Virus record (IMG/VR): IMGVR_UViG_2675903330_000005
Span: 1-23,430 of that record
Direction: 5' to 3' (one strand)
Source: a virus
Taxonomy: Duplodnaviria; Heunggongvirae; Uroviricota; Caudoviricetes
DNA: 23,430 nucleotides
Below, piece by piece: positions 3,911 to 23,172 of the stretch (position 1 is the stretch's first letter; the number at the start of each line of letters is the position of its first letter). Below the pieces are notes generated by a model, which worked only from the letters and a program-made list of their open reading frames with translations, was not told where the DNA came from and searched no databases. Both the position numbers and the translations under genes were made by a program.

Positions 3911-4764
3911 GCACCATCCTGAAATGGGCGGGTAATAAAACCGCCATTATGTCCGAACTGAAAAAATACCTTCCTGCTGGCCCGCGACTGGTTGAACCTT
4001 TCGCGGGTTCTTGTGCTGTGATGATGGCGACGGATTACCCCAGCTATCTGGTTGCGGATATTAATCCTGATTTAATCAACCTCTATAAAAAGATTGCCGC
4101 TGATTGCGAAGCGTTTATATCTCGTGCCAAAGTTTTATTTGAGGAAGCAAACAGTGAGCTGGCTTATTACAACATAAGACAGGAGTTTAATTACTCAACT
4201 GAAATTACTGATTTCATGAAGGCGATATATTTCCTGTATCTCAATCGTCACGGTTACCGTGGTTTATGTCGCTATAACAAGAGCGGGTATTTCAACATTC
4301 CCTACGGTAATTATAAAAATCCGTATTTCCCTGAAAAAGAAATTCGCGCATTTGCAGAGAAAGCCCAGCGGGCAACGTTTATCTGCGCGAGCTTTGATGA
4401 AACGCTGGCGATGCTGCAGGTGGGGGATGTGGTGTATTGCGATCCGCCGTATGACGGTACGTTTTCCGGCTATCACACTGATGGTTTCACTGAAGATGAC
4501 CAGTATCACCTGGCATCCATTCTTGAACATCGGTCATCAGAAGGACATCCGGTCATTGTTTCTAACAATGACACATCCCTGATTCGTTCGCTGTATCGCA
4601 ATTTTACTCACCACTATATCAAGGCAAAACGCAGCATCGGCGTGTCAGCTGGCGAGGGTAAATCTGCAACAGAAATCATTGCTGTTTCCGGGCCGAGCTG
4701 CTGGTTGGGATTTGATCCTTCGCGTGGCGTGGATAGTTCTGCCGTGTACGGAGTGTGTGTATGA
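3907..4764 (+). CDS. dam: DNA adenine methyltransferase (Dam-like, GATC N6-adenine MTase)
   Basis: N-terminal LKWAGNK and FAGSCAV (AdoMet-binding) motifs plus catalytic DPPY motif (..[11 protein letters not shown]..); start ATGA-overlaps the upstream stop. Confidence 0.9.
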
Positions 4765-7175
4765 GTCATGACGATATGAACAATTGCAGCGGCTTTAACG
4801 AGGCCGCCGCAGCATTTTCATGGAACGGCTCGAAAAAGGCCATTAACCCTTATCTGGACCCGGCGGAAGTTGCGCCGGAGTCTGCACTTTCAAACCTGAT
4901 CACTCTGTACGCTGCCGATAACGAGCAGGAACAACTGCGCCGCGAGGCACTGAGTGAGCAGGTCTGGGAGCGTTATTTCTTTAATGAATCCCGTGATCCT
5001 GTCCAGCGCGAAATGGAGCAGGATAAGCTCATTAGCCGGGCAAAGCTGGCGCATGAGCAGCAGCGTTTTAATCCGGACATGGTCATTCTGGCGGACGTAA
5101 ACGCCCAGCCTTCCCATATCAGCAAGCCGCTGATGCAACGTATTGAATACTTCAGCAGCCTGGGCAGGCCAAAGGCTTATTCCCGCTATTTGCGTGAGAC
5201 GATTAAGCCATGTCTGGAGCGACTGGATTGTGTACGTGACAGTCAGCTATCTGTTTCTTTCCGTTTTATGGCAAGCCATCAAGGGCTGGAGGGTCTGCTG
5301 ATCCTGCCTGAAATGAGCCAGGATCAGGTGAAACGCCTGTCCACCCTGGTAGCAGCGCATATGAGCATGTGTCTTGAGGACGCTTGTGGTGATTTGTATG
5401 CCACCGATGACGTTAAGCCAGAAGAAATCCGCAAGACATGGGAAAAGGTGGCAGCGGAAACCCTGCGTCTGGATGTTATCCCGCCTGCGTTTGAGAAACT
5501 TCGTCGGAAAAGAAACCGCCGCAAACCAGTGCCCTATGAACTCATCCCGGGTTCGCTGGCGCGTATGTTGTGTGCCGACTGGTGGTATCGGAAATTATGG
5601 AAGATGCGTTGCGAATGGCGGGAAGAGCAGTTGCGTGCTGTCTGCCTGGTCAGCAAAAAAGCATCCCCCTATGTCAGCTATGAAGCCGTGATGCATAAAC
5701 GTGAGCAGCGCCGTAAGTCGCTGGAGTTTTTTCGTTCTCATGAACTGGTGAACGAAGACGGCGACACGCTGGATATGGAAGATGTGGTAAACGCCAGCAG
5801 CAGCAACCCGGCGCATCGCCGCAATGAGATGATGGCCTGTGTTAAAGGTCTGGAGCTTATCGCGGAAATGCGCAGTGACTGTGCCGTTTTCTACACTATC
5901 ACCTGTCCGTCGCGTTTCCATTCCACGCTCAATAACGGCAGACCAAACCCGACCTGGACAAACGCGACGGTAAGACAAAGTAGCGATTATCTGGTCGGCA
6001 TGTTTGCTGCATTTCGTAAGGCTATGCATAAAGCCGAGTTGCGCTGGTATGGCGTGCGGGTAGCTGAGCCGCATCATGACGGTACTGTGCACTGGCATCT
6101 CATGTGTTTCATGCGTAAAAAAGACCGCCGCGCCATCACTGCATTACTGCGTAAGTTTGCCATCCGTGAAGACCGCGAGGAGCTGGGCAATAACACGGGA
6201 CCACGCTTTAAGTCTGAGCTGATAAACCCGCGCAAAGGTACGCCAACAAGCTATATCGCGAAATACATCAGTAAGAACATTGACGGGCGTGGTCTGGCTG
6301 GGGAGATCAGCAAGGAAACGGGTAAATCCCTGCGTGATAACGCTGAATACGTTAATGCCTGGGCGTCTCTGCATCGTGTTCAGCAATTCCGCTTCTTTGG
6401 CATTCCGGGGCGTCAGGCTTACCGTGAACTGCGATTGCTGGCTGGTCAGGCGGCAAGGCAACAGGGTGACAAAAAAGCAGGTGCGCCGGTACTGGATAAC
6501 CCGCGCCTTGATGCAATCCTGGCTGCTGCTGATGCTGGTTGTTTTGCCACCTACATCATGAAGCAGGGCGGCGTACTGGTTCCCCGCAAATATCACCTCA
6601 TCAGAACTGCTTATGAAATCAACGAAGAACCGACCGCATATGGCGATCACGGTATTCGTATTTATGGCATCTGGTCACCCATTGCAGAGGGCAAGATCTG
6701 CACTCATGCGGTGAAGTGGAAAATGGTTCGTAAGGCCGTTGACGTTCAGGAGGCGGCAGCCGACCAGGGCGCTTGCGCCCCTTGGACTCGTGGCAATAAC
6801 TGTCCCCTTGCTGAAAATTTGAACCAACAGGAGAAAGATAAATCAACAGATGGGGATCCCAGAACTGACATTACCTGTATGGATGACAAGGAGTTGCACG
6901 ATTACCTGCACAGTATGAGCAAAAAAGAGCGCCAGGAACTGGCAGCAAGATTACGCCTGATGAAACCGAAACGGCGTAAAGACTACAAACAGCGAATTAC
7001 AGAGTATCAGCGTCAGCAGCTCGTCTATGAACTGAAGTCAAGAGGATTTGATGGCAGCGAGAAAGAGGTCGATTTGCTCCTTCGCGGTGGCAGTATTCCG
7101 TCAGGAGCAGGCCTGCGTATCTTCTATCGGAACCAGCGTTTGCAGGAAGATGATAAGTGGCGGAACCTGTATTAA
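4761..7175 (+). CDS. A: Replication initiation endonuclease gpA (HUH rolling-circle initiator)
   Basis: About 804 aa; HUH motif ..[10 protein letters not shown].. and tyrosine pair ..[10 protein letters not shown].. characteristic of P2 gpA; start overlaps dam stop (ATGA). Confidence 0.9.
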
Positions 7176-7327: not shown

Positions 7328-7498
7328 ATGCAGGACTATTTTTTGGAGTCTTTGAAGCTCCAGCGCATTGATTTTTTTCTTAAGCTTGTGGCGGCTAGTG
7401 AGTGTAGTGATGAAGAGAAGGGGCTGGCTCTGCAGTGGGTTTCTGAGTTGACTGATGAGCTGATGGCGAGAATTCGCGCTCATGAATACAACCACTAG
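7328..7498 (+). CDS. Small 56-aa ORF downstream of the LexA box; candidate SOS-inducible Tum-like antirepressor or small regulator
   Basis: ATG preceded by a perfect AGGAGG SD at optimal spacing; not in the supplied ORF track (under 60 aa); translates to MQDYFLESLKLQRIDFFLKLVAASECSDEEKGLALQWVSELTDELMARIRAHEYNH. Confidence 0.35.
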   Translation: MQDYFLESLKLQRIDFFLKLVAASECSDEEKGLALQWVSELTDELMARIRAHEYNH

Positions 7499-7671
7499 AT
7501 GGATCTTCCCAGTAGTTTTTCGAAACTGAAAACAACCGAGTGAAAGTTACGACACTTGAGATTTTCACTTGGGTTATAATCAGAATACTTGTTTTCGTCC
7601 ACAAATGTACATGCCATGCATTAATGTGGTGATAGCTTTCAATTTTTACTAAATGGTTTCAATTGCTTCTT

Positions 7672-8217
7672 ATGAATCATGTAATGTTAGATATAGAAAC
7701 ATTGGATGTTGAAAAAACAGCTTATATCCTTTCAGTTGGTGCGGCTTTTTTCGTGCCGGAGACTGGCGAGATTGGTCCGGGTTTCTATCAAGTTATTTCG
7801 CTTGATCATGAACAAGCAGGCAGAACCATTGCCCCCTCTACTGTAAAGTGGTGGATGAATCAAAGTACTGAAGCTAAAAACGAAAATTTTGATGGCACTA
7901 AGGACCTTTTAGAGGTTCTGAATGAATTTGTGGCATTTATTCTTCATAATCGTACTGGCCGAGTAAAAGTGTGGGGAAACGGGAAAGAGTTTGACTGCAC
8001 GATCATGCATCATGCCCTGTTACAGGCGGGTCTGGATTGCCCATGGTCATTCAGAGATACTCTTGACGTTAGAACCATCTTAGCACTTGGTGAAAGCAAA
8101 GGAATTTTTTCTCATGCTGATAAAAATTTCACTGGCATTAGGCACACAGCATTCGATGATGTTTTATTTCAGATCGCACAGGTTTCTCACATCTATATGA
8201 ATTTAAATAAAAAATAA
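7672..8217 (+). CDS. DEDDh-type 3'-5' exonuclease (DnaQ-like fold), about 181 aa
   Basis: Exo I motif VMLDIETLD, Exo II-like ..VWGNGKEFDCTIM.., Exo III motif ..HTAFDDVLFQI..; first gene of the AT-rich cargo cassette; start codon uncertain (7663 TTG / 7672 ATG / 7684 ATG). Confidence 0.7.
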   Translation: MNHVMLDIETLDVEKTAYILSVGAAFFVPETGEIGPGFYQVISLDHEQAGRTIAPSTVKWWMNQSTEAKNENFDGTKDLLEVLNEFVAFILHNRTGRVKVWGNGKEFDCTIMHHALLQAGLDCPWSFRDTLDVRTILALGESKGIFSHADKNFTGIRHTAFDDVLFQIAQVSHIYMNLNKK

Positions 8218-8232
8218 ATATAGGACTTAGCT

Positions 8233-9144
8233 ATGGATTGCTTAGATGTAACCTATTGGACTGAGCTAGATGTTTTCGCACAGTATCCTGTTGGTGCTCG
8301 CTCTAAGGCATTGGTTATTTCCCCTGATGTTGCCCCCCATGGTATCAAAGCATCGTGGCCGTATCTTTTTAAGAGAAGCATTAAAAAATACCCAGATCAA
8401 TTTTGGTGTGAGATCGTTGCCTACAGGATTGGATTGCAGCTTGGTTTTAATGTCCCCAAAGCAGTTCCTTCGTTAAAGACTAATGATTTGGGGCATACGT
8501 TTTGCGGGGCCCTCATTGAGTGGTTTCATCATAAAGATTATGAGAAATTTGCTCCCGCTGGTGATTACTTTGTTCGAAGAGATCCAAATTTTGATCGTGA
8601 GAAAGGAGCTAAGCATTCCATTGAAGGGCTGAGGATTATCGCGAAAGCTCTTAAAGTTGACTATGTTGAGTGGTTGGAGAATATGGCTCTCTTTGACGCA
8701 GTAATAGGTAATACAGATAGACATCAAGAAAACTGGGGGTTTATCTTCTCACCTTTAACCAGCGAGTGTCAGCTTGCACCATTTTTCGATAATGGTACGA
8801 GCTTATGCTACGAACGTTTTCCGGAACATGTTGCTGATTGGACCGATCATAGACTCAGGGAGCATGTTAGCCGGGGAAAGCATCATTTGCGTAAGACTCT
8901 GGGCAAAGATGAGTATCAGAGATTAGGTCATTTAGAGTTAATCAAAGAACTTTGTGATAAAAAAGAAGAATTAAAACAGCGGGTAGCTGAAAGACTGGCT
9001 CGTTTGAACCATGACTTTTGGGACTCAACTTTTGCGGAGTTGACGGAAATAAACTGCCCTGTTCCGCTGACTAGAGAACGTGCTGCATGGATTGTTCGTG
9101 TAACAAACATGCGTATTGAACTGATTAAAGGTGTTACTTCATGA
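8233..9144 (+). CDS. HipA-family serine/threonine kinase, short HipT-like form lacking the HipA N-terminal subdomain
   Basis: P-loop-like ..VGARSKALVIS.. (cf. HipA VAGAQEKTAL), ..WCEIVAYRIGLQLGFNVP.. (cf. HipA YCLLLAKELGLNVP), catalytic loop ..VIGNTDRHQENWGF.. (cf. HipA IGATDGHAKNFS) and Mg-binding ..LAPFFDNGTS.. (cf. HipA LTPFYDIIS); 303 aa. Confidence 0.8.
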   Translation: MDCLDVTYWTELDVFAQYPVGARSKALVISPDVAPHGIKASWPYLFKRSIKKYPDQFWCEIVAYRIGLQLGFNVPKAVPSLKTNDLGHTFCGALIEWFHHKDYEKFAPAGDYFVRRDPNFDREKGAKHSIEGLRIIAKALKVDYVEWLENMALFDAVIGNTDRHQENWGFIFSPLTSECQLAPFFDNGTSLCYERFPEHVADWTDHRLREHVSRGKHHLRKTLGKDEYQRLGHLELIKELCDKKEELKQRVAERLARLNHDFWDSTFAELTEINCPVPLTRERAAWIVRVTNMRIELIKGVTS

Positions 9145-9845
9145 CTATCTTAATAGAAAAAATTCCCATGCCAAGTAGGCTCTTACTGACATGGCAACCG
9201 ACCGACGGCGGCTCTCGCTATGTCGTTGGTGAACTTCTTCAAGATGAGTCTGAAGGCTACGAGTTTAATTATCTTACGGATAGCAAAGATTTTGCTAAAG
9301 CTGTGGATAAAGGCTTTCACGGTTTTCCTGCTTTTGACATAAAAGTTACGACTCATCGCAAAGACGTTATGCAAACCTTTTCAAGAAGGTTACCCTCTAG
9401 GAAAAGAGAAGATTTTGCCGATTACTTGCTGACGTTTCGTCTTCCTGCTGATTTTAGAGAGAATGACTTCGTTTTGCTCGCTTGTACTGGCGGAAAAGTG
9501 GCTAGTGATGGTTTTTATTTTGTCCCAGACTTGTCTTCTATTCGGCCACCTTTTGATTATGTCATGGAGGTCGCCGGAACGAGACACATGATTAAGGAAG
9601 GGCGTCTAGCTCTTGACGAGATATCAATTGGTGATGAAGTCATATTGCGCAATGAAGATACCAATACTGTTGATCCGCTGGCCATATTAGTAACGAAAAA
9701 CGACAATCATCTAGGATATGTCAACAAGGCATTGTGCGCCGCATTACGAGATCTTGGTAAAAACCATGATATCAGTGGAGTGGTCGTACGTAAAAATGGC
9801 TCTTCGGATAGGCCTTTGATTTATGCAAAAGTATCTGTTAGATGA
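9141..9845 (+). CDS. Two-domain protein: N-terminal HipA-N-subdomain-like (HipS-like) region fused to a C-terminal HIRAN-like domain
   Basis: N-term ..LLLTWQPTDGGSRYVVGELLQDESEGYEFNY.. resembles the HipA N-terminus (..LVTWMNNQRVGELTKLANGAHTFKY..); C-term ..DEVILRNEDTNTVDPLAILVTKNDNHLGYVNKALCAAL.. fits the HIRAN pattern; start ATGA-overlaps the kinase stop. Confidence 0.55.
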   Translation: MTILIEKIPMPSRLLLTWQPTDGGSRYVVGELLQDESEGYEFNYLTDSKDFAKAVDKGFHGFPAFDIKVTTHRKDVMQTFSRRLPSRKREDFADYLLTFRLPADFRENDFVLLACTGGKVASDGFYFVPDLSSIRPPFDYVMEVAGTRHMIKEGRLALDEISIGDEVILRNEDTNTVDPLAILVTKNDNHLGYVNKALCAALRDLGKNHDISGVVVRKNGSSDRPLIYAKVSVR

Positions 9846-10013
9846 TGCATGTTTATTCATGCTTGCTAGTGATACTGCATTTATAGAGTCTGTCAACTAT
9901 GGAGATTTTTTCGTCTCATGCAACTACATTAAATTACCATTAAGTGGGTTGACGTTGCGGGGGAAGCATTACACGTCAGTATTGGTGCGTCTGAAGTGTC
10001 ATGCCGAAAAGGT

Positions 10014-10121
10014 ATGAAAAAGCCGCTTGGTAACATAACTATTCGCAATGATGTTGTAGGAAGCGAACTGGAAATGATAGCAATGGATGCTGTTGATGTA
10101 GTGTATGTCTATGCTGCATGA
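10014..10121 (+). CDS. Possible 35-aa micro-ORF (MKKPLGNITIRNDVVGSELEMIAMDAVDVVYVYAA) at the 3' end of the cassette
   Basis: ATG with an AAAGG SD-like sequence upstream; ends about 35 bp before the intrinsic terminator; weak support. Confidence 0.2.
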   Translation: MKKPLGNITIRNDVVGSELEMIAMDAVDVVYVYAA

Positions 10122-10155
10122 GTTTGCATGAACGTTTGAGGCTCGTTTTTGTTAA

Positions 10156-10181
10156 GGCCCGCCAGAACTGGCGGGCTTTTG
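10156..10181 (+). terminator. Rho-independent terminator closing the cargo cassette
   Basis: GC-rich inverted repeat GCCCGCC-agaact-GGCGGGC followed by TTTTG. Confidence 0.6.
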
Positions 10182-10225
10182 CTCATGTCATGCAGGTGCA
10201 TGAAAACCACTACATAAAGCGGGCA

Positions 10226-10244
10226 GGCGTGGCGGGGATACGAG
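10226..10244. other. Candidate cos site (19-nt cohesive end): GGCGTGGCGGGGATACGAG followed by CGCGCGC
   Basis: Matches the P2 cohesive end GGCGAGGCGGGGAAAGCAC at 14 of 19 positions and the 186 sequence as I recall it at about 15 of 19; lies between the post-gpA cargo region and gene Q, where cos sits in P2. Confidence 0.6.
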
Positions 10245-10305
10245 CGCGCGCAAACATGTTTACTTGCAATTAATGTAGATATATTCTGAAATTGATAACT
10301 TACAC

Positions 10306-10515
10306 ATGAAAGGAGACGTGAGAGTGGCAAAATATACACCGGGCCAGAAAGTAAAACATGCAACAGGACATGGTCCAATCATGGTAATTGATCACTACCA
10401 ATCGGCTACAATGGCAGTTTGTACGTGGTTTATTGGTGCTAAGAACCAGCGCGGAGTTTTTCATGAAGATACTCTAGTTTTATTTGTTCCAAAAGCTGAG
10501 AGTGATGATGAATGA
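10306..10515 (+). CDS. YodC/DUF2158-like small protein; start may be GTG at 10324 (63 aa)
   Basis: ..KYTPGQKVKHATGHGPIMVI....GVFHEDTLV.. resembles E. coli YodC (..GGPRMIV....EAFHETELV..); AGGAG SD 8 nt upstream of GTG 10324. Confidence 0.55.
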   Translation: MKGDVRVAKYTPGQKVKHATGHGPIMVIDHYQSATMAVCTWFIGAKNQRGVFHEDTLVLFVPKAESDDE

Positions 10516-10774
10516 TTCTCTGATAAAAATAGTTGACTGGATGGTTAATACCACTCGTTCTAATGGTGTGTTGTATCAGTCCGAGGTTGTTGAATTTCTA
10601 ATCAATGACTTTGGGGACGAGTTCATCAAAACTAATGAGAATGGTAATTACGCTATAAGCAGTACTGTGCTAGCAAATTTTAGAAAGGCTAGCAAAGACG
10701 ATATAGTTTGGGATCGTGAACAGTTAGCTTGGCGTTTACGCAATGAAAGCGATTTACCCGGACGGATGCAGTAG
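10508..10774 (+). CDS. Hypothetical 89-aa protein, overlapping the upstream small gene's stop
   Basis: ORF whose ATG (10505/10508) overlaps the stop of the YodC-like gene; no recognisable motif. Confidence 0.4.
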   Translation: MNDSLIKIVDWMVNTTRSNGVLYQSEVVEFLINDFGDEFIKTNENGNYAISSTVLANFRKASKDDIVWDREQLAWRLRNESDLPGRMQ

Positions 10775-10790
10775 AGATAATACAGAGAAT

Positions 10791-10831
10791 AGTGAACAAG
10801 CTGATAATTTCAACTTGTTCACTTCTTTTTT
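10791..10831. terminator. Hairpin terminator between the convergent small-gene pair and gene Q (possibly bidirectional)
   Basis: Perfect 10-bp inverted repeat AGTGAACAAG...CTTGTTCACT with 13-nt loop, followed by TCTTTTTT on the + strand. Confidence 0.5.
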
Positions 10832-11873
10832 ATGACTGATTATTTTCTAAGCCATAATATTCAAATTTGACTACCTCTTCATCTAACCATTCATTAATTT
10901 CGGCAATGCGTTTTTGTAAAGGCATCAGTTCATTCCGAACAAATACCCGGCTGGCTTTCTCCACATCCCCAAACCCCCCTACATTATTAGGCATAATCCC
11001 CATCATCTGCGGCGGCACTCGGTGTGCTGCCATCATGTCGTCCCGGCTCACGTTCTTGATATTCAGAAACTCATCCTTCGCCGCGACTTCTGACAACGGG
11101 ATGATCTGAAGCCCGTCCTTTTTGCCGTTAGGCGAGTACATAAACAGATTGCGGAAGTTACCTGGTCCTTTGGCGCTTTTCATCGCATTGCGGAGGTTGT
11201 TCACATCCTCCTGGTTTTGCGCGGCATCGGTCATGTACATGATGAAGCCTGCATGACTGCCGTTAATGTAATACTTTCGACGGAACAGCGTGGCGGACTC
11301 GTTGAGCAGGGCAGACGGAATGGCAGAAAGATAACCGGGCAGGCCGTAGATCTCCTGATTAATATCCGGTTCCATTAGATGAAAAATGCTGCCTTTCGTG
11401 AACTGATACGGCTGGGTTGTCATACCGTATTGCACAAACCAGTAGGTATCCAGGTCTAACCCGCGTCGGGTGTATTTTGCCAGCGCAGGCTCAAGGGCGA
11501 TAACTTCACCGAATCGGTTCGTGCGTTTCTCCAGGTAGGCGTTACCAAATACCAGATAGTCCTGCACAAAACGCGAAAAAGCCTGCTGGCTGAGCAGCGG
11601 GTGAGGGATATAGGTGCTGGTCAGAATGTTGCACTTTACTGCAATCGGTGAGCTGTGGTGAACGGCGGCGCGGAATGTTCGCGCCAGTCCGTCAAAACTT
11701 ACGGGTGGCTCATACCAGCGATCCGTCTGTACGCATTCCACATAGTCCAGCAGTTCGCGGCGGTCAAGTACTGGAATGGGATCACCGAAGCTGAATGCTT
11801 CGGCTGAAGTTTGGCTTTTATGCTTGAGCTGATTCGTCGCCGCAGCGCGGTTTTTCTTACTCTTTCCCATCAA
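10830..11873 (-). CDS. Q: Capsid portal protein gpQ
   Basis: 347 aa, leftward, ATGA-coupled to P; position and size match P2 Q. Confidence 0.9.
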   Translation of the reverse strand: MMGKSKKNRAAATNQLKHKSQTSAEAFSFGDPIPVLDRRELLDYVECVQTDRWYEPPVSFDGLARTFRAAVHHSSPIAVKCNILTSTYIPHPLLSQQAFSRFVQDYLVFGNAYLEKRTNRFGEVIALEPALAKYTRRGLDLDTYWFVQYGMTTQPYQFTKGSIFHLMEPDINQEIYGLPGYLSAIPSALLNESATLFRRKYYINGSHAGFIMYMTDAAQNQEDVNNLRNAMKSAKGPGNFRNLFMYSPNGKKDGLQIIPLSEVAAKDEFLNIKNVSRDDMMAAHRVPPQMMGIMPNNVGGFGDVEKASRVFVRNELMPLQKRIAEINEWLDEEVVKFEYYGLENNQS

Positions 11874-16436: not shown

Positions 16437-16901
16437 ATGAAGTTTGTTGCGCCAGAACAGGCACCGGAACAGGCGGAAATCATCAGGAATACGCCGTTCT
16501 GGCCTGATGTGGACCTGTCGGAGTTTCGCAGTGTCATGCGCACTGACGGCACGGTGACGCAGCCGCGTTTAAAGCAGGTTGCGCTGTCGGCAATTTCGGA
16601 GGTCAACGCAGAGCTGTATGAGTTTCGCAGACGTCAGCAGATGCTGGGGTATGCGTCGCTGGCTGAGATTCCGGCGGAACATCTGGACGGGAAAAGTGAG
16701 CGCATTCAGCACTATTTCAACGCGGTTTACTGCTGGGCACGCGCCATGCTCAACGAACGATACCAGGACTATGACGCCACGGCATCCGGTGTGAAGCGAG
16801 GCGAGGAACTGGCGGAATCCAGCGGTGATTTGTGGCGTGACGCCCGCTGGGCCATCAGCCGGGTGCAGGATGCGCCGCACTGCACAGTGGAGCTTATCTG
16901 A
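16437..16901 (+). CDS. L: Head completion/stabilisation protein gpL (start at internal ATG with CAGGAG SD)
   Basis: Position after M; stop overlaps X start; the track ORF's N-terminal extension lacks an SD. Confidence 0.75.
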   Translation: MKFVAPEQAPEQAEIIRNTPFWPDVDLSEFRSVMRTDGTVTQPRLKQVALSAISEVNAELYEFRRRQQMLGYASLAEIPAEHLDGKSERIQHYFNAVYCWARAMLNERYQDYDATASGVKRGEELAESSGDLWRDARWAISRVQDAPHCTVELI

Positions 16902-17104
16902 TGAAAGTGCGTGCGCATCAGTATGACACGGTGGACGCGCTTTGCTGGCGTCATTACGGGCGCACGCAGGGTGTCACGGAGCAGGTACTGAAGGCAAATC
17001 CGGGGCTTGCCGAATATGGCCCCTTTTTACCTCACGGGCTGCAGGTGGAGCTGCCGGACATTCCGACCACCACCACCGTGCAGACCGTCCAGCTATGGGA
17101 CTGA
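16901..17104 (+). CDS. X: Tail protein gpX (LysM-like)
   Basis: 67 aa, same length as P2 X; ..VDALCWRHYG.. motif. Confidence 0.85.
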   Translation: MKVRAHQYDTVDALCWRHYGRTQGVTEQVLKANPGLAEYGPFLPHGLQVELPDIPTTTTVQTVQLWD

Positions 17105-17107
17105 ATT

Positions 17108-17323
17108 ATGACGCTTGAGCGAATCAGCGCCTTTATCACGTACTGCATCGCCGTTGTGCTGGCCTGGCTGGGCGATTTGTCCATCAAGGATGCCTCAACG
17201 CTGGGCGGCCTGATGATTGGTGTGCTGATGCTGGCTATCAACTGGTACTACAAACACAAAGCCTACCAGCTTCTGCGCGACGGGCAGATCTCGCGGGAGG
17301 ACTATGAATCCATCAATCGTTAA
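17108..17323 (+). CDS. Y: Holin (P2 gpY position), 71 aa with two hydrophobic segments
   Basis: Membrane-spanning segments ..ISAFITYCIAVVLAWLG.. and ..LGGLMIGVLMLAINWYY.. and a charged C-terminus, directly upstream of the lysozyme. Confidence 0.65.
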   Translation: MTLERISAFITYCIAVVLAWLGDLSIKDASTLGGLMIGVLMLAINWYYKHKAYQLLRDGQISREDYESINR

Positions 17324-17930
17324 ACGCTGCCTTGTCGGGGCCGTGCTGGCTATTGCTGCCACGCTGCCGGGTTTTCAGCAGCTTCACACCTCCGTGGAGG
17401 GGCTGAAACTGATTGCCGATTACGAAGGCTGTCGTCTGCAGCCGTATCAGTGCAGCGCGGGTGTCTGGACCGACGGCATTGGTAATACATCTGGCGTCAT
17501 TCCAGGCAAAACCATTACGGAACGACAGGCAGCGGAAGGGCTGATCTCCAACGTGCTACGTGTGGAGCGGGCGCTGGAAAGATGTGTGAAGCAACAGCCG
17601 CCACAAAAGGTGTATGACTCGGTGGTGTCGTTTGCCTTCAACGTGGGAACGGGCAATGCCTGCAGTTCCACGCTGGTGAAATTACTCAATCAGCGGCGCT
17701 GGGCGGATGCGTGCCGACAGTTGCCGCGCTGGGTTTATGTAAAAGGTGTGTTTAATCAGGGGCTGGATAGGTGCTCTGCTCAGTCCGATAGGTCTTGTGG
17801 TTACTGCACTGGCGGGCGTGGCGCTGGTTGTCTGGAAATACTGGCAACCCATCACCGCATTTCTCGGTGGCGTGGTGGAAGGATTCAAAGCGGCGGCAGG
17901 TCCCATCAGTGCAGCGTTCGAACCGCTTAA
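17304..17930 (+). pseudogene. K: Endolysin gpK (lysozyme family), 3'-truncated at a deletion junction near 17760; ORF continues out of register into tape-measure DNA
   Basis: N-terminal roughly 150 aa look like a phage lysozyme (..EGLKLIADYEGCRLQPYQCSAGVWTDGIGNT..); the distal roughly 55 aa are low-complexity read-through overlapping the T fragment in another frame. Confidence 0.7.
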
Positions 17931-18687
17931 GCCCGTGTTCCAGTGGATTGGCGACAAAGTGCAGGCGCTGTGGGGCTGGTTTACTGATCTGCTGACGCCC
18001 GTTAAGTCGACCTCTGCCGAACTGCAGAGCGCAGCGGCAATGGGGCGGCGATTCGGGGAGGCACTGGCGGAAGGGCTGAATATGGTCATGCATCCGCTGG
18101 ACTCCCTGAAATCCGGCGTTTCCTGGTTGCTGGAGAAGCTCGGCATTGTCAGTAAAGAGGCCGCAAAGGCAAAACTGCCGGAAAGCGTGACGCGTCAGCA
18201 ACCTGCGACGGTGAATGCAGACGGTAAAGTGATGATGCCATCGGGTGGTTTTCCATCATGGGGATATGGCTTTGCGGGGATGTATGACAGCGGCGGGTAT
18301 ATCCCGCGCGGGCAGTTTGGCATCGTCGGTGAAAACGGGCCGGAAATTGTTAACGGCCCGGCAAATGTGACCAGCCGGAGAAATACAGCTGCACTGGCTG
18401 CCGTTGTTGCCGGAATGATGGGCGTTGCTGCCGCGCCAGCAGAGCTTCCACCGTTGCACCCTTTGGCACTTCCCGCGAAAGGTGGAGAAGCAATTGTGAG
18501 TCGCGCAGCCACTGTGCCGCTCGTTCAACGGATTGAGGCACCGACGCAGATCATCATTCAGACGCAGCCAGGACAAAGTGCGCAGGATATTGCGCGGGAG
18601 GTGGCACGCCAGCTTGATGAACGTGAACGCAGGCTGAAGGCAAAAGCCAGGAGTAACTACAGCGATCAGGGGGGATACGACGCATGA
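17746..18687 (+). pseudogene. T: Tape-measure protein gpT, C-terminal fragment only (about 310 of about 800 aa); 5' part removed by the deletion
   Basis: Hydrophobic TMP-like segment GWIGALLSPIGLVVTALAGVALVVW and C-terminal ..GGYIPRGQFGIVGENGPEIVNGP..; stop overlaps the U start; no credible start or SD. Confidence 0.8.
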
Positions 18688-19169
18688 TGATGGTGCTGGG
18701 ATTGTACGTGTTTATGCTGCGCACCGTTCCGTATCAGGAACTGCAGTATCAACGCAGCTGGCGACATGCGGCAAACAGTCGGGTAAACCGACGTCCGTCC
18801 ACGCAGTTTCTGGGACCGGAAAACGACATGCTGACGCTTTCCGGTGTTCTTATGCCGGAAATAACAGGCGGCAGGCTGTCGTTGCTGGCACTGGAGCAGA
18901 TGGCAGAACAGGGGAAAGCATGGCCCCTGATTGAAGGCAGCGGCACGATTTACGGCATGTATGTGATTGAGGGACTGAATCAGACTAAAACGGAGTTTTT
19001 CCGCGATGGTATGCCGCGCCGGATTGAGTTCACCCTGTCGCTCAAACGGGTGGATGAATCCCTGTCCGATATGTTCGGTGATCTCAGTGCGCAGCTGAAT
19101 AATTTGCAGGATACGACAACGTCTGCCTTAAGCGATATCAGTAAAACGGTGGGAGGGCTGCTGTCGTGA
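18684..19169 (+). CDS. U: Tail protein gpU
   Basis: 161 aa (P2 U is about 159 aa), between T and D. Confidence 0.85.
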   Translation: MMMVLGLYVFMLRTVPYQELQYQRSWRHAANSRVNRRPSTQFLGPENDMLTLSGVLMPEITGGRLSLLALEQMAEQGKAWPLIEGSGTIYGMYVIEGLNQTKTEFFRDGMPRRIEFTLSLKRVDESLSDMFGDLSAQLNNLQDTTTSALSDISKTVGGLLS

Positions 19170-20266
19170 ATTTCAGCTCTGAACTGCTTAACAAAGGCAA
19201 CAAAACTCCGGCATTCAGCATCAGTATTGAGGGTAAGGATATCACCACTGTGCTGGATAACCGCCTGATGAGTCTGACGCTGACGGACAATCGGGGCTTT
19301 GAAGCGGACCAGCTTGATCTGGAGCTGGATGACGCCGACGGAAAAATCGTGCTGCCGCGCCGTGGTGCGGTCATTACGCTGGCGTTGGGCTGGAAGGGGC
19401 AGTCGCTTTTCCCGAAAGGAGCATTCACGGTGGACGAGATTGAACACACTGGCGCACCGGACCGCCTGACTATCCGGGCGCGAAGTGCTGATTTTCGTGA
19501 AACCCTGAATACCCGCCGTGAAAAATCGTGGCACAAGACCACCGTTGGGGAAGTGGTGAAGGAAATAGCTGCGCGGCACAAACTGAAGATGGCATTGGGT
19601 GAAGACCTGTCGGATAAACCTGTGGAGCATATAGACCAGACCAATGAGAGTGACGGCAGTTTTCTGATGCGGCTGGCGCGCCAGTACGGTGCTATTGCGT
19701 CGGTGAAAAATGGCAATCTGTTATTCATCCGGCAGGGACAGGGTAAAAGCGCCAGCGGTAAACCACTACCGGTTATCACTATCACACGTAAGGACGGCGA
19801 CAGTCACCGCTTTACCCTGGCAGATCGCGGAGCCTACACGGGCGTAATTGCCAGCTGGTTGCATACCCGCGAACCCGCGAAGAAAGAAAGCACCACGGTG
19901 AAGCGTAAGCGCAGGACTAAGAAGCAGAAGAAAGAGCCGGAAGCGAAGCAGGGCGATTACCTGGTGGGTACAGATGAAAACGTGCTGGTACTTAATCGCA
20001 CCTATGCCAACCGGAGCAACGCCGAACGGGCGGCGAAAATGCAGTGGGAACGCCTGCAACGTGGCGTTGCGTCATTCTCGCTACAACTGGCAGAAGGTCG
20101 GGCGGATCTCTACACGGAAATGCCAGTGAAAGTCAGAGGCTTTAAACAGCCGATAGATGATGCGGAATGGACTATTACCACCCTGACGCATACTGTCAAT
20201 CCGGATAACGGTTTTACGACCAGTCTGGAGCTTGAAGTGAAGATTAATGATTTCGAAATGGAATGA
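19166..20266 (+). CDS. D: Tail protein gpD (late control gene D)
   Basis: 366 aa; GTG start with GGGAGGG SD; follows U and precedes ogr as in P2. Confidence 0.85.
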   Translation: MNFSSELLNKGNKTPAFSISIEGKDITTVLDNRLMSLTLTDNRGFEADQLDLELDDADGKIVLPRRGAVITLALGWKGQSLFPKGAFTVDEIEHTGAPDRLTIRARSADFRETLNTRREKSWHKTTVGEVVKEIAARHKLKMALGEDLSDKPVEHIDQTNESDGSFLMRLARQYGAIASVKNGNLLFIRQGQGKSASGKPLPVITITRKDGDSHRFTLADRGAYTGVIASWLHTREPAKKESTTVKRKRRTKKQKKEPEAKQGDYLVGTDENVLVLNRTYANRSNAERAAKMQWERLQRGVASFSLQLAEGRADLYTEMPVKVRGFKQPIDDAEWTITTLTHTVNPDNGFTTSLELEVKINDFEME

Positions 20267-20356
20267 TTCTTCGTAATAGAGAACTTTTAAGTTTTCAAAA
20301 TGGAATAATGCGGTATCATTATTGTGAATTTAGCAAAAATGGGGAGAACTCGAAAA

Positions 20357-20575
20357 ATGATGATTTGCCCACTGTGTGGAAGTGCCGCCCATACTCGCAG
20401 CAGTTTTCAGGTATCTTCATTGACCAAAGAGCGTTACAACCAGTGCCAGAACATTAACTGCAGCCATACTTTTGTTACCCATGAAACTTTTGTTCGTTCG
20501 ATTGCAACGCCAAAAGAGTCAAATCCGGTTCAGCCGCATCCAATGAAATCAGGACAGGTGGCGCTCTCTCTTTGA
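20357..20575 (+). CDS. ogr: Ogr/Delta-family zinc-finger late-gene transcription activator
   Basis: ..MICPLCGSAAHTRSS....KERYNQCQNINCSHTF.. matches the P2 Ogr CxxC-N22-CxxxxC zinc-finger pattern. Confidence 0.85.
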   Translation: MMICPLCGSAAHTRSSFQVSSLTKERYNQCQNINCSHTFVTHETFVRSIATPKESNPVQPHPMKSGQVALSL

Positions 20576-20652
20576 CTCTGCCGCCAATTTGTCGCCATCG
20601 TTAAAAAAAAGTGCTTCTAACATCATGATTTTAAACGGCATAAATTTCAGGC

Positions 20653-20698
20653 AACAAAAAACCCATCAACCTTGAACCGAAATGGCGGGGTTGATGGG
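20653..20698 (-). terminator. Rho-independent terminator read on the minus strand (likely the ybjL terminator)
   Basis: Perfect 10-bp inverted repeat CCCATCAACC / GGTTGATGGG with 17-nt loop, preceded on + by AACAAAAAA (a U-run on the minus strand). Confidence 0.5.
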
Positions 20699-20810
20699 CT
20701 CCACAAAATGGGGACATCAAAGAAAAGCAGTGGCACTAATTAAGACTGATGCCCTGCGGAAAAGTTCTGCGGTTGTGCAAAAAAATTTCATTTTCAGGGC
20801 AACTTCAGTT

Positions 20811-22496
20811 TTATCCTAATCCTGGCCATACCATGACGATGATTGTCCCTGCCAGCGTCAGCAGGACGTTGGCGATTGCATAGGTGCCCGCATAGCCCAG
20901 CGCCGGGATGTTACTGCGAGCTGTATCACTGATGATCTCCATTGCCGGCGCGCAGGTACGTGCGCCCATCATTGCGCCGAACAACAGCGCGCGGTTCATT
21001 CGCAATACATAAGCACCGAACAAGAAACAGATAACCACGGGCACCAGACTGACAATCAATCCGGCAATCAACATCTGACCGCCAATCGCGCCCAGGCCGT
21101 TATTAATACCGCTACCGGCGCTCAGACCAACGCCTGCCATAAACACCATCAAGCCGAACTCTTTCACCATGCTTAATGCACCCTGCGGAATGTAACCGAA
21201 GGTCGGGTGGTTAGCACGCATAAAGCCCAGCATAATTCCGGCGAATAACAACCCGGCAGCGTTCCCCATGCCGAAACTGAATGTGCTGAACTGGAAGGTG
21301 ATCATCCCGATCATCAGCCCAATAACAAAGAAGGCGCAGAATGCCAGCAGGTCAGTGACCTGGCTGTGAATCGAGATAAAGCCGATGCGATCGGCGATGG
21401 TTTTTACGCGGCGGGCATCGCCGCTGACTTGTAAAACGTCACCTTTGTTAAGCACGACGTTGTCATCTATCGGCATCTCAATCTGGCTACGAATGACGCG
21501 GTTAAGGAAGCAACCGTGATCGGTCAACTTCAGTTGTGCGAGACGTTTACCTACAGCGTTATGGTTTTTAACGACCACTTCTTCAGTGACGATACGCATG
21601 TCGAGAAGGTCACGATCGAAAACTTCTTTACCGTTACGGAAGCTGGGATCGAGTCGGGCATGGGCGTCGGGATAGCCTACCAACGCTATTTCATCGCCCA
21701 TTTGTAGCACGGCATCACCGTCTGGATTTGCCAGAATCCCGTTACGTCGAATACGTTCAATGTAGCAGCCGGTTTGTCGATAAATACCCAGTTCACGCAG
21801 ATTTTTGCCGTCGGTCCAGGCCACCAGTTCCGGGCCGACGCGATAGGCGCGGATCACCGGTAAATAAACCTTACGGTTGGCATCAGTGTCCAGGCCACGT
21901 TCGCGGGCGATTTGCTGGGCGCTGGTCTGTAAGTCCTGATGCTGCAATTTCGGCAAGTAACGCGCACCAACAATCAAACTCACCAGACCGATTAAATAGG
22001 TTAAGGCATACCCGAGGCTCAGATTATCCAGTGCCAGTGAGAGCTGCCTGCTTTCCATGCCGGAATGACGCAGTGTATCGCCAGCACCGACCAGAACCGG
22101 TGTCGACGTCATAGAGCCTGCTAACATACCGGCCGTCAGGCCAATATCCCAGCCAAACAGCTTACCTAACCCTAAGGCGATCACCAGCGCACTGCCAACC
22201 ATCACCAGTGCTAACATTAGGTAATTTTTCCCATCGCGAAAAAAAATGGAAAAAAAGTTCGGTCCGGCTTCGACCCCGACGCAGAAAATAAACAGCATAA
22301 AGCCAAGATTAAGCGCATCGGTGTTAATGCTGAAATGTTGTTGGCCTAATAACAGCGATACGACTAAAACGCCAATGGAATTACCCAGTTGGATCGAACC
22401 AAGTCGTAACTTTCCGAGACATAGCCCAAGCGCGAGGACCACAAATAATAACAGAATGTAATTCCCATTTAACAATTCGGCGACGTTTATATTCAC
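20811..22496 (-). CDS. ybjL: Putative transport protein YbjL (AAE-family transporter with central TrkA-C/RCK_C-like domains)
   Basis: 561-aa polytopic membrane protein with the duplicated-transporter architecture of E. coli YbjL; conserved neighbourhood with ybjM and grxA. Confidence 0.9.
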
Positions 22497-22765
22497 GGAG
22501 GCTAACTTCTTGTTTACTAGTAAGCTGTTGAAAGAAATGGTAATTTACGATAATGTTTTTTACCAGAATTCAGGGCGCAGATTCATTCAGCGCACCTAAA
22601 CGATAGTAAAGCAACAATATATTTTACTAGTGTAATCACATTAGGTATCAACGGCTATATGAATTGCGTTGGCCTATATTAGCATGGAATGCGAAGCGGC
22701 TTTATCTTACTGAACGCCACACTGGCGAAAAATGTGTTCGATAGACGCAGTGTCAGGAGGAACGA

Positions 22766-23143
22766 GTGAAACATAAACAACGTTGGGCGGGGGCAATCTG
22801 CTGTTTTGTCCTCTTCATTGTGGTGTGCCTTTTTCTGGCGACGCACATGAAAGGCGCTTTTCGGGCTGCCGGGCATCCTGAAATCGGCTTGCTATTTTTC
22901 ATTCTTCCTGGAGCAGTCGCCAGCTTCTTTTCACAGCGTAGAGAAGTCCTGAAACCTCTGTTTGGCGCAATGCTGGCGGCACCCTGTTCGATGCTCATTA
23001 TGCGGCTGTTTTTTTCACCGACGCGCTCATTCTGGCAAGAGCTGGCATGGTTACTAAGCGCGGTGTTCTGGTGTGCGCTGGGGGCACTGTGTTTCTTATT
23101 TATCAGTAGTTTGTTTAAACCACAGCACAGAAAAAATCAGTAA
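22766..23143 (+). CDS. ybjM: Inner membrane protein YbjM
   Basis: 125-aa hydrophobic protein between ybjL and grxA, as in E. coli K-12. Confidence 0.85.
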   Translation: MKHKQRWAGAICCFVLFIVVCLFLATHMKGAFRAAGHPEIGLLFFILPGAVASFFSQRREVLKPLFGAMLAAPCSMLIMRLFFSPTRSFWQELAWLLSAVFWCALGALCFLFISSLFKPQHRKNQ

Positions 23144-23172
23144 AGCCCTCAACGCGAGGGCTTGTCAGACGA

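What the first reader, a model, noticed from the sequence alone, without database searches (positions are those of the whole stretch)
8233..9144. Short HipA-family kinase with intact catalytic motifs but no N-terminal subdomain
The protein aligns by eye to E. coli HipA from the P-loop onward (VGARSKALV vs VAGAQEKTAL; GLQLGFNVP vs ELGLNVP; GNTDRHQENWGF vs GATDGHAKNFS; LAPFFD vs LTPFYD). The region HipA has upstream of the P-loop is absent, as in HipT-type kinases. The GNTDRHxxN loop is also the form seen in PI3/4-kinase-like folds. Catalytic residues look intact, so it is probably an active kinase and potentially toxic if unrestrained.
Basis: partly seen in the sequence, partly recalled or inferred. 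Interest (0 to 1): 0.75.

Follow-up and report, generated by a model that had tools for sequence, protein, structure and literature searches.

The report
HipA-like kinase module in P2 prophage
The gene is a real, probably active short HipA-family protein kinase. It belongs to an already described but experimentally untested kinase/antidote pair (hipIN, PADLOC candidate PDC-M03), here carried as swappable cargo in the anti-phage hotspot of a P2-like E. coli prophage together with a 3'-5' exonuclease gene.

Summary
Window 8233..9144(+) encodes a 303-aa protein that passes Pfam's HipA_C threshold. It keeps the Gly-rich loop (G21/R23/K25), K47, the catalytic loop D162-R-H-Q-x-N167 and D186-N-G, and it starts directly at the Gly-rich loop, so HipA's N-subdomain-1 is missing. 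The AF2 model (pLDDT 91) matches CtkA best, then HipA and HipT.

The missing subdomain is encoded by the next gene. That gene (9141..9845) overlaps the kinase stop by ATGA and has a HipS-like N-terminal half plus a C-terminal HIRAN domain. This is the hipIN architecture of Gerdes et al. 2021 and the PADLOC candidate PDC-M03A/B (E about 1e-36 each). The pairing is strict: 78 of 78 evaluable chromosomal loci and 61 of 62 viral loci.

The module lies between gpA and the portal gene of a P2-like prophage, the known defence hotspot. It is rare, in 5 of 5426 E. coli genomes.

The new point is the upstream Rv2179c-like 3'-5' exonuclease. Across 17 distinct P2 cassettes (3 split, 14 kinase-HipS-HIRAN fusions) it co-diverges with the kinase (r=0.96) but not with gpA or portal (r=0.18). 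It is absent from 80 chromosomal loci.

No experimental work on this module was found. Most likely it is a toxin-antitoxin-like abortive-infection module triggered through DNA 3'-end sensing. It is a new member of a known kind.

The parts
8233..9144 (+). HipI-type short HipA-family Ser/Thr kinase, 303 aa (RefSeq WP_021523856.1 'HipA domain-containing protein'; PADLOC PDC-M03A)
   Evidence: ORF. Pfam HipA_C is above the gathering score. PDC-M03A E=4e-36. AF2 pLDDT 91. Foldseek hits CtkA, HipA and HipT. RefSeq name.
8287..8307 (+). Gly-rich (P-) loop, residues P19-V-G-A-R-S-K25
   Evidence: P19, G21, R23 and K25 are invariant in 34 homologues. They map to HipA G153..K157 through the Pfam profile coordinates.
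8371..8373 (+). K47, the presumed ATP-binding lysine in 'YLFK'
   Evidence: Invariant. Aligns with 'YILK' of HipT(Lp) in the profile alignment.
8716..8733 (+). Catalytic loop D162-R-H-Q-E-N167
   Evidence: Invariant D, R, H, Q and N. Aligns with HipA D309..N314 and with CtkA DRHNGN.
8788..8796 (+). D186-N-G, the Mg-binding Asp (equivalent of the DFG motif)
   Evidence: Invariant. Aligns with HipA D332.
9141..9845 (+). HipN-type putative antitoxin/sensor, 234 aa. Its ATG overlaps the kinase TGA (ATGA).
   Evidence: ORF and overlap. PDC-M03B E=1e-36. AF2 pLDDT 93.9. Immediately downstream on the same strand in 78 of 78 evaluable genome loci.
9165..9530 (+). HipS-like domain of HipN (about residues 9-130), the counterpart of HipA N-subdomain-1
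   Evidence: Foldseek hit to HipS(Lp) 8ezr_A: prob 0.99, TM(target) 0.68, E=0.05. The 47%-identical region of the fused phage-899 protein passes Pfam Couple_hipA (E=8e-6, 26.7 bits against a cut-off of 22.5). The window protein itself has no Pfam hit here.
9558..9794 (+). HIRAN domain of HipN (residues 140-218)
   Evidence: Pfam HIRAN E=2.3e-7, above the gathering score. Foldseek hit to HLTF HIRAN E=3e-5. The GxR[H/Y], NxxDxxA and G[Y/H] motifs align with HLTF and lp_0118.
7663..8217 (+). Rv2179c-like DEDDh 3'-5' exonuclease (RefSeq start at 7684), 15 nt upstream of the kinase gene. It is linked to the cassette in P2-like phages.
   Evidence: Pfam PF16473 E=5e-50. In E. coli it is found only together with the kinase cassette. 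It co-diverges with the kinase (r=0.96) but not with gpA or portal.
4755..7175 (+). P2 gpA-like replication endonuclease, the left border of the hotspot
   Evidence: ORF. RefSeq annotation of the identical locus.
10830..11873 (-). P2 Q-like portal protein, the right border of the hotspot
   Evidence: ORF. RefSeq annotation.

Best explanation
The gene encodes the kinase of a hipIN-type module (HipI kinase plus HipN, which is a HipS-like domain fused to HIRAN; PADLOC candidate PDC-M03). The module is carried as exchangeable cargo in the gpA-portal defence hotspot of a P2-like prophage.

Shown:
- It is a HipA-superfamily kinase fold with every catalytic residue conserved and no N-subdomain-1.
- That subdomain's homologue sits at the N-terminus of the translationally coupled downstream gene, fused to a HIRAN domain.
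- The two genes are always adjacent and are often fused into one polypeptide.
- In P2-like phages a DEDDh 3'-5' exonuclease gene is inherited with them as one cassette.

Inferred mechanism:
- The HIRAN domain binds free DNA 3' ends that appear when another phage replicates, packages or degrades DNA.
- This binding relieves the inhibition.
- The freed kinase phosphorylates an essential translation factor. By analogy with HipA (GltX) and HipT (TrpS) this would be an aminoacyl-tRNA synthetase.
- Growth stops and the infection is aborted, which protects the lysogen population.
- The linked exonuclease probably tunes the nucleic-acid signal, for example by trimming 3' ends made by the prophage or the host so that the system does not fire on self.
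For: - Kinase identity: Pfam HipA_C above threshold; invariant motif residues; alignments to HipA, HipT and CtkA; model pLDDT 91 with CtkA, HipA and HipT as top folds.
- Partner: HIRAN by Pfam, profile and fold. HipS-like half by fold, and by Couple_hipA in a 47%-identical fused homologue.
- Coupling: ATGA overlap. HipN-like ORF directly downstream on the same strand in 78/80 genome loci, the other 2 being cut by the contig end, and in 61/62 viral loci.
- Fusions: kinase-HipS-HIRAN fusions in 14 of 17 distinct P2 cassettes, a Rosetta-stone argument for physical interaction.
- Defence context: both PADLOC PDC-M03 models hit. The module lies in the P2 gpA-portal hotspot described by Rousset 2022 (PMC9122126). 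GC is low (0.41 against 0.53-0.58). It is present in only 5 of 5426 E. coli genomes, while 1281 share only the flanks.
- Exonuclease linkage: found only with the cassette in E. coli. Pairwise identities of kinase and exonuclease correlate at r=0.96, against r=0.18 for kinase and gpA.
- Literature: the HipS/HIRAN antitoxin idea and the DNA-end-sensing abortive-infection hypothesis are those of Gerdes et al. 2021 (PMC8262856). Actinobacterial HipA+HIRAN genes also sit next to a DEDD nuclease (PMC11706625).
Against: - No experiment on any hipIN, hipL or PDC-M03 module was found. Toxicity, neutralisation, the trigger, the target and the anti-phage activity are all inferred.
- The HipS-like assignment for the window protein rests on one Foldseek hit at E=0.05 and on homology to a fused relative. 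It has no direct Pfam hit.
- No Ser/Thr is conserved in the Gly-rich loop. S24 is variable, so HipA/HipT-style autophosphorylation control cannot be assumed.
- The closest solved relative is CtkA, which is not known as a toxin-antitoxin toxin.
- Only a minority of chromosomal hipIN loci have recognisable defence genes as neighbours.
- The exonuclease is absent from 80/80 chromosomal loci, so it is not required by the core module.
- The same exonuclease family occurs alone in other phages.
Confidence: 0.55

Rival explanations
1. It is a plain addiction (post-segregational killing) toxin-antitoxin pair. It stabilises the prophage or the hotspot cargo and has no role in phage defence. On this reading HIRAN only provides DNA binding for autoregulation, in place of HipB.
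For: The toxin-antitoxin-like architecture and translational coupling. There is no HTH regulator in the cassette. Many chromosomal homologues lie among housekeeping genes.
Against: The cassette sits in a hotspot whose known cargo is anti-phage systems (PMC9122126). It matches PADLOC defence-candidate models. HIRAN is known as a DNA-end binder, not a sequence-specific operator binder (literature cited). The fused single-polypeptide forms are hard to reconcile with a labile antitoxin and a stable toxin.
Confidence: 0.15
2. It is a phage-benefit replication or host-takeover module. The exonuclease and the HIRAN protein would act on 3' ends created by gpA during P2 rolling-circle replication, and the kinase would remodel host physiology during lytic growth, as the T7 gp0.7 kinase does.
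For: The cassette lies directly downstream of gpA on the same strand, with no convincing terminator in between. Exonuclease and HIRAN both act on nucleic-acid 3' ends. Related exonucleases occur in the early operons of other P2/186-like and lambdoid phages.
Against: The kinase-HipN pair occurs in 78 non-phage chromosomal loci across many phyla without gpA, portal or exonuclease. The cassette is dispensable: it is absent from nearly all P2-like prophages with the same flanks. It swaps between backbones independently of gpA.
Confidence: 0.12
3. It is a CtkA-like kinase with a different, non-toxin substrate logic, for example an autophosphorylating signalling kinase or an exported effector. The resemblance to HipA toxins would then be only at the level of fold.
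For: CtkA is the best sequence and structure match.
Against: Identity to CtkA is only 15-17%. The obligatory HipS-like partner is the hallmark of Hip toxin control. No secretion signal or secretion-system context was seen in the prophage.
Confidence: 0.08

Closest known systems
hipIN modules (HipI kinase + HipN, a HipS-like domain fused to HIRAN), Gerdes, Baerentsen & Brodersen 2021, mBio (PMC8262856); the same as PADLOC candidate PDC-M03A/B
   Same: Short core kinase: 303 aa here, against the family range of 279-321 aa. The Gly-rich loop is near the N-terminus and the four Hip motifs are present. The downstream gene has a HipS-like domain plus HIRAN. Both PDC-M03 HMMs hit at about 1e-36.
   Different: Only 14 hipIN modules were in the 2021 data set, and none was described in an E. 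coli P2-like prophage hotspot or with a linked exonuclease. Placement in clade XI by phylogeny was not done here, because the stored Table S1 is truncated before those rows.
HipL kinases (single polypeptide: kinase + HipS-like + HIRAN), same paper
   Same: The same three domains in the same order. The window's two proteins are 42% and 47% identical to the two halves of the 547-aa fused protein of Escherichia phage 899 / Yersinia phage GMG73, which sits in the same hotspot.
   Different: The window version is split into two overlapping genes. In P2-like phages the fused form is the commoner: 14 of 17 distinct cassettes, and 61 against 5 E. coli genomes.
HipBST (HipT kinase, HipS, HipB) of E. 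coli O127 and HipS-HipT of Legionella
   Same: The kinase lacks N-subdomain-1, and that subdomain is supplied in trans by a HipS-type protein. The fold is similar: TM about 0.5, profile E=4e-5 to HipT(Lp).
   Different: There is no HipB. The HipS-like domain is encoded downstream, not upstream, and is fused to HIRAN. Sequence similarity is weaker than to CtkA. The Ser residues of the HipT loop are not conserved.
E. coli HipA (HipBA)
   Same: The HipA_C domain, the catalytic loop D..N, the Mg-binding Asp and the GAxxK loop.
   Different: About 137 aa shorter, with no Couple_hipA domain and no HipB. Only 34 residues align significantly in a pairwise comparison.
CtkA (JHP0940) of Helicobacter pylori, PDB 3AKJ
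   Same: The best solved match in sequence (profile E=6.5e-13 over 218 positions) and in fold (TM 0.65-0.74). It is of similar size and has no N-subdomain.
   Different: 15-17% identity. CtkA is described as a proinflammatory, cell-translocating kinase (PDB title and my own recollection). No HipS-HIRAN partner is known to me.
diDNase + HipA + HIRAN gene clusters of Actinomycetes (Mortensen et al. 2025, NAR, PMC11706625)
   Same: A DEDD-superfamily 3'-5' exonuclease gene lies directly next to HipA-domain and HIRAN-domain genes. Those authors also left the functional link open.
   Different: The actinobacterial nuclease is an NrnC-like dinuclease. The window's is Rv2179c-like (PF16473). These are different DEDD branches, so the association looks convergent rather than inherited.

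Membership tests
HipA superfamily (Pfam HipA_C, PF07804) | HipA_C domain scoring above Pfam's gathering threshold | tested here: met
   40.3 bits against a cut-off of 30.5, E=3.6e-10, residues 21-212.
HipA superfamily (Pfam HipA_C, PF07804) | Conserved kinase motifs: Gly-rich loop, ATP-binding Lys, catalytic D-x4-N loop and Mg-binding Asp | tested here: met
   G21/R23/K25, K47, D162..N167 and D186 are invariant in 34 homologues and align with HipA, HipT and CtkA.
HipA superfamily (Pfam HipA_C, PF07804) | HipA/CtkA-type kinase fold | tested here: met
   AF2 pLDDT 91, pTM 0.90. Foldseek hits: CtkA E=4e-9, HipA E=3e-6, HipT E=1e-5.
HipA superfamily (Pfam HipA_C, PF07804) | Ser/Thr kinase activity and growth inhibition | not testable with these tools
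   No experiment was possible, and none was found in the literature for this clade.
HipBA (HipA sensu stricto) | N-subdomain-1 (Couple_hipA) in the same polypeptide | tested here: not met
   No Couple_hipA hit, and only 18 residues precede the loop. E. coli HipA has the domain at residues 6-103.
HipBA (HipA sensu stricto) | Upstream HTH antitoxin HipB | tested here: not met
   The upstream gene is a DEDDh exonuclease, and no HTH protein is present in the cassette.
HipBST (HipT type) | Short kinase lacking N-subdomain-1, with a separate HipS-type protein | tested here: met
   (HipS(Lp) fold hit).
HipBST (HipT type) | hipB-hipS-hipT gene order, with a stand-alone HipS and HipB | tested here: not met
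   The HipS-like domain is downstream and fused to HIRAN, and there is no HipB.
hipIN (HipI/HipN; Gerdes 2021) | Short core kinase (279-321 aa) with the Gly-rich loop near the N-terminus | tested here: met
   303 aa, loop at residues 19-25. Definition.
hipIN (HipI/HipN; Gerdes 2021) | [quoted passage not shown] | tested here: met
   HIRAN by Pfam and by fold. HipS-like by fold (E=0.05, TM 0.68) and through Couple_hipA in a fused homologue. The HipS-like half is the weaker part of this evidence.
hipIN (HipI/HipN; Gerdes 2021) | [quoted passage not shown] | not tested
   The stored copy of Table S1 lacks the clade XI rows. No tree was built.
PADLOC PDC-M03 (phage defence candidate) | Adjacent genes matching the PDC-M03A and PDC-M03B HMMs | tested here: met
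   A: E=4.1e-36. B: E=9.5e-37. The genes overlap by 4 nt.
PADLOC PDC-M03 (phage defence candidate) | Anti-phage activity | not testable with these tools
   It is only a candidate. The one paper that mentions PDC-M03 is a genome annotation.
HIRAN domain (PF08797) | Domain above the gathering score, with the DNA 3'-end-binding motifs retained | tested here: met
   31 bits against a cut-off of 24.7. G146-x-R148, N175-x-x-D178-x-x-A181 and G192-Y193 align with HLTF VVGLRYY / NPYDKNA / VGH.
HIRAN domain (PF08797) | Binding of free DNA 3' ends | not testable with these tools
   Needs EMSA or anisotropy measurements.

The most novel reading that the evidence does not exclude
In P2-like phages the functional unit is a three-part system: a DEDDh 3'-5' exonuclease, a HipA-like kinase and a HipS-HIRAN 3'-end sensor. 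The exonuclease would edit the pool of nucleic-acid 3' ends, or of short oligonucleotides, that the HIRAN domain reads. This would set the self/non-self threshold of a kinase-based immune switch. The same logic would have arisen independently in Actinobacteria with an NrnC-type diDNase. That would be a previously undescribed sensing principle for a Hip kinase: DNA-end surveillance with an exonuclease 'noise filter'.
Probability: 0.3. Interest if true: 0.7.

Novelty: new member of a known kind. Interest (0 to 1): 0.48.

Why it matters
hipIN/hipL (PDC-M03) is a widespread Hip-kinase architecture that has been predicted but never tested. Its 2021 authors explicitly proposed that it is a DNA-end-sensing abortive-infection system.

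This window supplies a native E. coli version carried by a P2-like prophage in the classic defence hotspot. The hypothesis can therefore be tested directly in the best model host, with standard coliphage panels and existing HipA/HipT tools.

The cassette-level linkage to a 3'-5' exonuclease parallels the unexplained diDNase-HipA-HIRAN clusters of Actinobacteria. It gives a concrete third component to include in, or delete from, such tests.

If confirmed, the result would extend Hip kinases from persistence toxins to nucleic-acid-triggered immune effectors. If not, this remains a routine annotation of a known family.

Tried and rejected
- Pairwise BLASTP and hhalign against E. coli HipA recover only the catalytic and Mg loops. 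The P-loop correspondence had to be inferred from Pfam profile coordinates.
- NCBIfam has no specific model. There is only a sub-threshold YjjJ hit.
- PHROGs lists the kinase and HipN families as 'unknown function'.
- I looked for experimental work under other names. The Millman 2022 preprint hit was a false match on the author name 'Hirano'. Rousset 2022 and the 2026 P2/P4 hotspot preprint do not mention HipA or HIRAN. The preprint's 'Bandua' nuclease+kinase system is Stk2-like and comes from P4, so it is not this module.
- I tried to obtain Gerdes' hipIN reference sequences for a tree, but the stored Table S1 is cut before those rows.
- I tested whether the exonuclease is a universal partner. 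It is not: 0 of 80 chromosomal loci have it, even with a three-sequence profile.
- I tested whether the exonuclease is just P2 backbone. This was rejected, because it co-varies with the kinase and not with gpA or portal. The same exonuclease family does occur alone elsewhere in 186-like early operons and in lambdoid phages.
- I tested whether it is the actinobacterial diDNase. It is not; that enzyme is NrnC-like, and the PDB search gave no informative hit for the window exonuclease.
- Defence-island context of the chromosomal homologues was ambiguous. A few neighbours are RM, MADS or Cas genes, and most are housekeeping genes.
- The promoter and terminator scans were uninformative. Promoter-like sites were at chance level.
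Full report

Window 8233..9144(+) is an uninterrupted ATG-initiated ORF of 303 codons. It lies in a low-GC stretch: about 0.41 between 7.2 and 10.8 kb, against 0.53-0.58 on both sides.

The protein passes Pfam's curated threshold for HipA_C (40.3 bits against 30.5; residues 21-212). It has 559 homologues at E<=1e-3 in the large protein collection, nearly all about 300-320 aa and named 'HipA domain-containing protein' where a source names them.

- BLASTP against E. coli K-12 HipA (taken from NC_000913) aligns residues 153-186 with HipA 300-332. This covers the catalytic loop GNTDRHQENWG / GATDGHAKNFS and LAPFFD / LTPFYD (E=0.002).
- The profile-versus-PDB alignment puts the 'GLQLGFNVP' helix against the equivalent 'TIGLEVP' of HipT(Lp).
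- The P-loop pairing follows from Pfam coordinates. HipA_C position 1 is HipA residue 149, and position 5 is query residue 21. So G21-A-R-S-K25 corresponds to HipA G153-A-Q-E-K157.

In an alignment of 34 homologues at 37-93% identity, the invariant residues include G21, R23, K25, K47, E60, D162, R163, H164, Q165, N167, D186, N187 and G188. Only 18 residues precede the loop, and there is no Couple_hipA domain. E. coli HipA has that domain at residues 6-103.

The PI3/4-kinase resemblance of the catalytic loop is real but weak and below threshold.

**2. What is the protein?**

An AlphaFold2 model built on the 34-sequence alignment is confident (pLDDT 91.1, pTM 0.90). Foldseek against the PDB ranks hits as follows:
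- H. pylori CtkA first: E=4e-9, TM 0.65-0.74.
- Then HipA (3DNT: E=3e-6).
- Then HipT from Legionella and from E. coli O127: TM about 0.5.

The family profile gives the same order by sequence: CtkA 6.5e-13, HipT(Lp) 4e-5, HipT(Ec) 0.03, HipA 0.14. So it is a HipA-superfamily kinase of the short, CtkA-like kind.

**3. The downstream gene supplies the missing subdomain.**

ORF 9141..9845(+), 234 aa, starts with an ATG that overlaps the kinase stop codon (ATGA).
- Its C-terminal part is a HIRAN domain. Pfam scores it above threshold at residues 140-218. Foldseek matches HLTF HIRAN at E=3e-5. The motifs GxR[H/Y], NxxDxxA and G[Y/H] line up with HLTF and lp_0118.
- Its N-terminal half matches the antitoxin HipS(Lp) of the Legionella HipS-HipT complex by fold (prob 0.99, TM 0.68 normalised to HipS, E=0.05).
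- The window sequence itself has no Pfam hit for that half.
- The 47%-identical region of a fused phage homologue does pass Pfam Couple_hipA, the HipA N-terminal domain (E=8e-6, 26.7 bits against 22.5).

A short kinase followed by a HipS-like+HIRAN protein is exactly the 'hipIN' organisation defined by Gerdes, Baerentsen and Brodersen in 2021 (PMC8262856). Independently, both proteins hit the two PADLOC models of the defence candidate PDC-M03 (A: 4e-36; B: 1e-36).

**4. How tight is the pairing?**

A scan of one genome per GTDB species returned 80 loci. They span Gamma-, Beta- and Alphaproteobacteria, Omnitrophica, Planctomycetota, SAR324 and others. In 78 of them a HipN-like ORF lies immediately downstream on the same strand, adjacent or overlapping. 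The other two are cut by a contig end.

In IMG/VR, 61 of 62 loci have the partner. In many viral loci the two are one polypeptide of about 550 aa. Such fusions argue that the two proteins work as a physical unit.

**5. Genomic setting.**

The window is a P2/186-like prophage: integrase, CI and CII on the left, then gpA (4755..7175), then the portal (10830..11873, minus strand), terminase and capsid genes. The kinase cassette fills the gpA-portal interval. This is the P2 'tin/old' hotspot, which Rousset et al. showed to be a reservoir of anti-phage systems (PMC9122126).

Only 5 of 5426 complete E. coli genomes carry the cassette at 99.5-99.9% identity, and one more has a decayed copy. By contrast, 1281 genomes share only the flanks. 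RefSeq calls the three genes '3'-5' exonuclease', 'HipA domain-containing protein' and 'HIRAN domain-containing protein'.

**6. The exonuclease travels with the module.**

This is the point not found in the searched literature. The ORF 15 nt upstream of the kinase (7663..8217) is an Rv2179c-like DEDDh 3'-5' exonuclease (PF16473, E=5e-50).

- In E. coli genomes it occurs only where the kinase cassette occurs.
- Escherichia phage 899 and Yersinia phage GMG73 are P2-like phages of 33.8 kb. They carry, in the same hotspot, an exonuclease 41% identical to the window's, followed 9 nt later by a 547-aa kinase-HipS-HIRAN fusion. The fusion is 42% and 47% identical to the window's two proteins. That fused cassette is present in 61 E. 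coli genomes, again always with its exonuclease.
- In IMG/VR, 25 of 62 loci have such an exonuclease immediately upstream. All 25 lie between gpA-like and portal-like genes.
- Across the 17 distinct cassettes (3 split, 14 fused), pairwise identities of kinase and exonuclease correlate at r=0.96-0.97. Kinase identity does not track the flanking gpA (r=0.18) or portal (r=0.17).
- Two examples show the decoupling. One pair has gpA 85% identical but kinase 43% and exonuclease 40%. Another has gpA 38% but kinase 95% and exonuclease 90%.

So the exonuclease belongs to the mobile cassette and not to the phage backbone.

It is nevertheless not a universal partner. None of the 80 chromosomal loci has it. 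The same exonuclease family also occurs alone in 186-like early operons and in lambdoid phages.

Mortensen et al. (NAR 2025, PMC11706625) reported that a third of actinobacterial diDNase genes sit next to HipA- and HIRAN-domain genes. Those nucleases are NrnC-like, a different DEDD branch. A DEDD exonuclease has therefore become linked to this module at least twice.

**7. Mechanism.**

Shown: a kinase fold with all catalytic residues conserved; its regulatory subdomain encoded in trans and fused to a DNA-end-binding domain; obligatory adjacency and frequent fusion; hotspot cargo behaviour; and cassette linkage to a 3'-5' exonuclease.

Inferred, by analogy with HipS/HipT and following the hypothesis of Gerdes et al.: HipN's HipS-like domain holds the kinase inactive; HIRAN binding to free DNA 3' ends generated during infection releases it; the kinase phosphorylates an essential translation factor; and growth arrest aborts the infection. 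The exonuclease may trim 3' ends made by the cell or the prophage, or degrade the ligand, and so set the threshold.

Points against:
- No member of this family has been tested, as far as the library shows.
- No Ser/Thr is conserved in the Gly-rich loop.
- The defence-island context of the chromosomal homologues is patchy.

**8. Rivals.**

The rival readings are a pure addiction module, a phage replication or host-takeover module, and a CtkA-like non-toxin kinase. None is excluded by experiment, but each is less well supported.
- The fused forms argue against a model with a labile antitoxin.
- The 78 non-phage loci and the cassette's dispensability argue against a replication role.
- The obligatory HipS-like partner argues against a free-standing effector.

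**9. Novelty and verdict.**

The precise label should be HipI/HipN (hipIN, PDC-M03) rather than the HipT type.

The family was described in 2021 and is already modelled in PADLOC. The protein is already in RefSeq under a generic name. The finding is therefore a new member of a known kind.

What is worth carrying forward:
- This is a native, tractable E. coli / P2 instance of an untested candidate immune kinase.
- In P2-like phages it forms a co-evolving cassette with a DEDDh exonuclease, in both split and fused forms.

Noticed in passing
window 7663-8217 (+): An Rv2179c-like DEDDh 3'-5' exonuclease gene lies 15 nt upstream of the kinase gene. In E. coli genomes it is found only together with the kinase cassette. 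Across 17 distinct P2-hotspot cassettes it co-diverges with the kinase (r=0.96) but not with gpA or portal (r about 0.18). It is absent from 80 chromosomal hipIN loci.
   Followed up: yes
L083:4995-6638 (Escherichia phage 899, PV533660; same sequence in Yersinia phage GMG73): A 547-aa single-polypeptide kinase + HipS-like + HIRAN protein (HipL-like) sits in the same P2 hotspot, preceded by a 41%-identical exonuclease. The record annotates it with a later start (locus 5079) as 'hypothetical protein'. This fused cassette is present in 61 of 5426 E. coli genomes, about ten times commoner than the window's split form.
   Followed up: partly
window 16900-20600 and 20653-23430: The prophage seems to be defective. 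After the capsid and head-completion genes the window goes almost directly to gpU (18684-19169), gpD (19166-20266) and ogr. Host DNA follows: RybB sRNA at 20653-20731(-) with 105 bits in Rfam, then ybjL, ybjM and grxA. The lysis, baseplate, tail-fibre and sheath genes present in the related SF-173 prophage are missing.
   Followed up: partly
window 10306-10515 (+) and 10484-10774 (+): Two small overlapping ORFs (a weak DUF2158 hit and DUF6953; PHROGs 3261 and 10782, function unknown) lie at the right edge of the hotspot next to the portal gene. This flank is conserved in more than a thousand E. coli P2-like prophages, whatever cargo they carry.
   Followed up: no
window 9846-10300: About 450 nt downstream of the HIRAN gene have no convincing ORF and no Rfam hit. 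In E. coli DS26-1 an IS66-family element (ISEc47) is inserted in the homologous stretch. The P2 cos site is expected somewhere between here and the portal gene, but it was not located.
   Followed up: no
L084 (E. coli EC101, NZ_CP196707.1 1-5403): A copy of the cassette at 93-95% identity shows decay. RefSeq annotates the exonuclease as frameshifted with an internal stop and gpA as frameshifted, and the locus is split by the start of the record.
   Followed up: no
window 7328-7498 (+): A 56-aa ORF (phrog_698, function unknown) lies just after gpA. It is part of the conserved left flank of the hotspot shared by about 1280 E. coli genomes, and some records annotate a DinI-like protein in this flank.
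   Followed up: no
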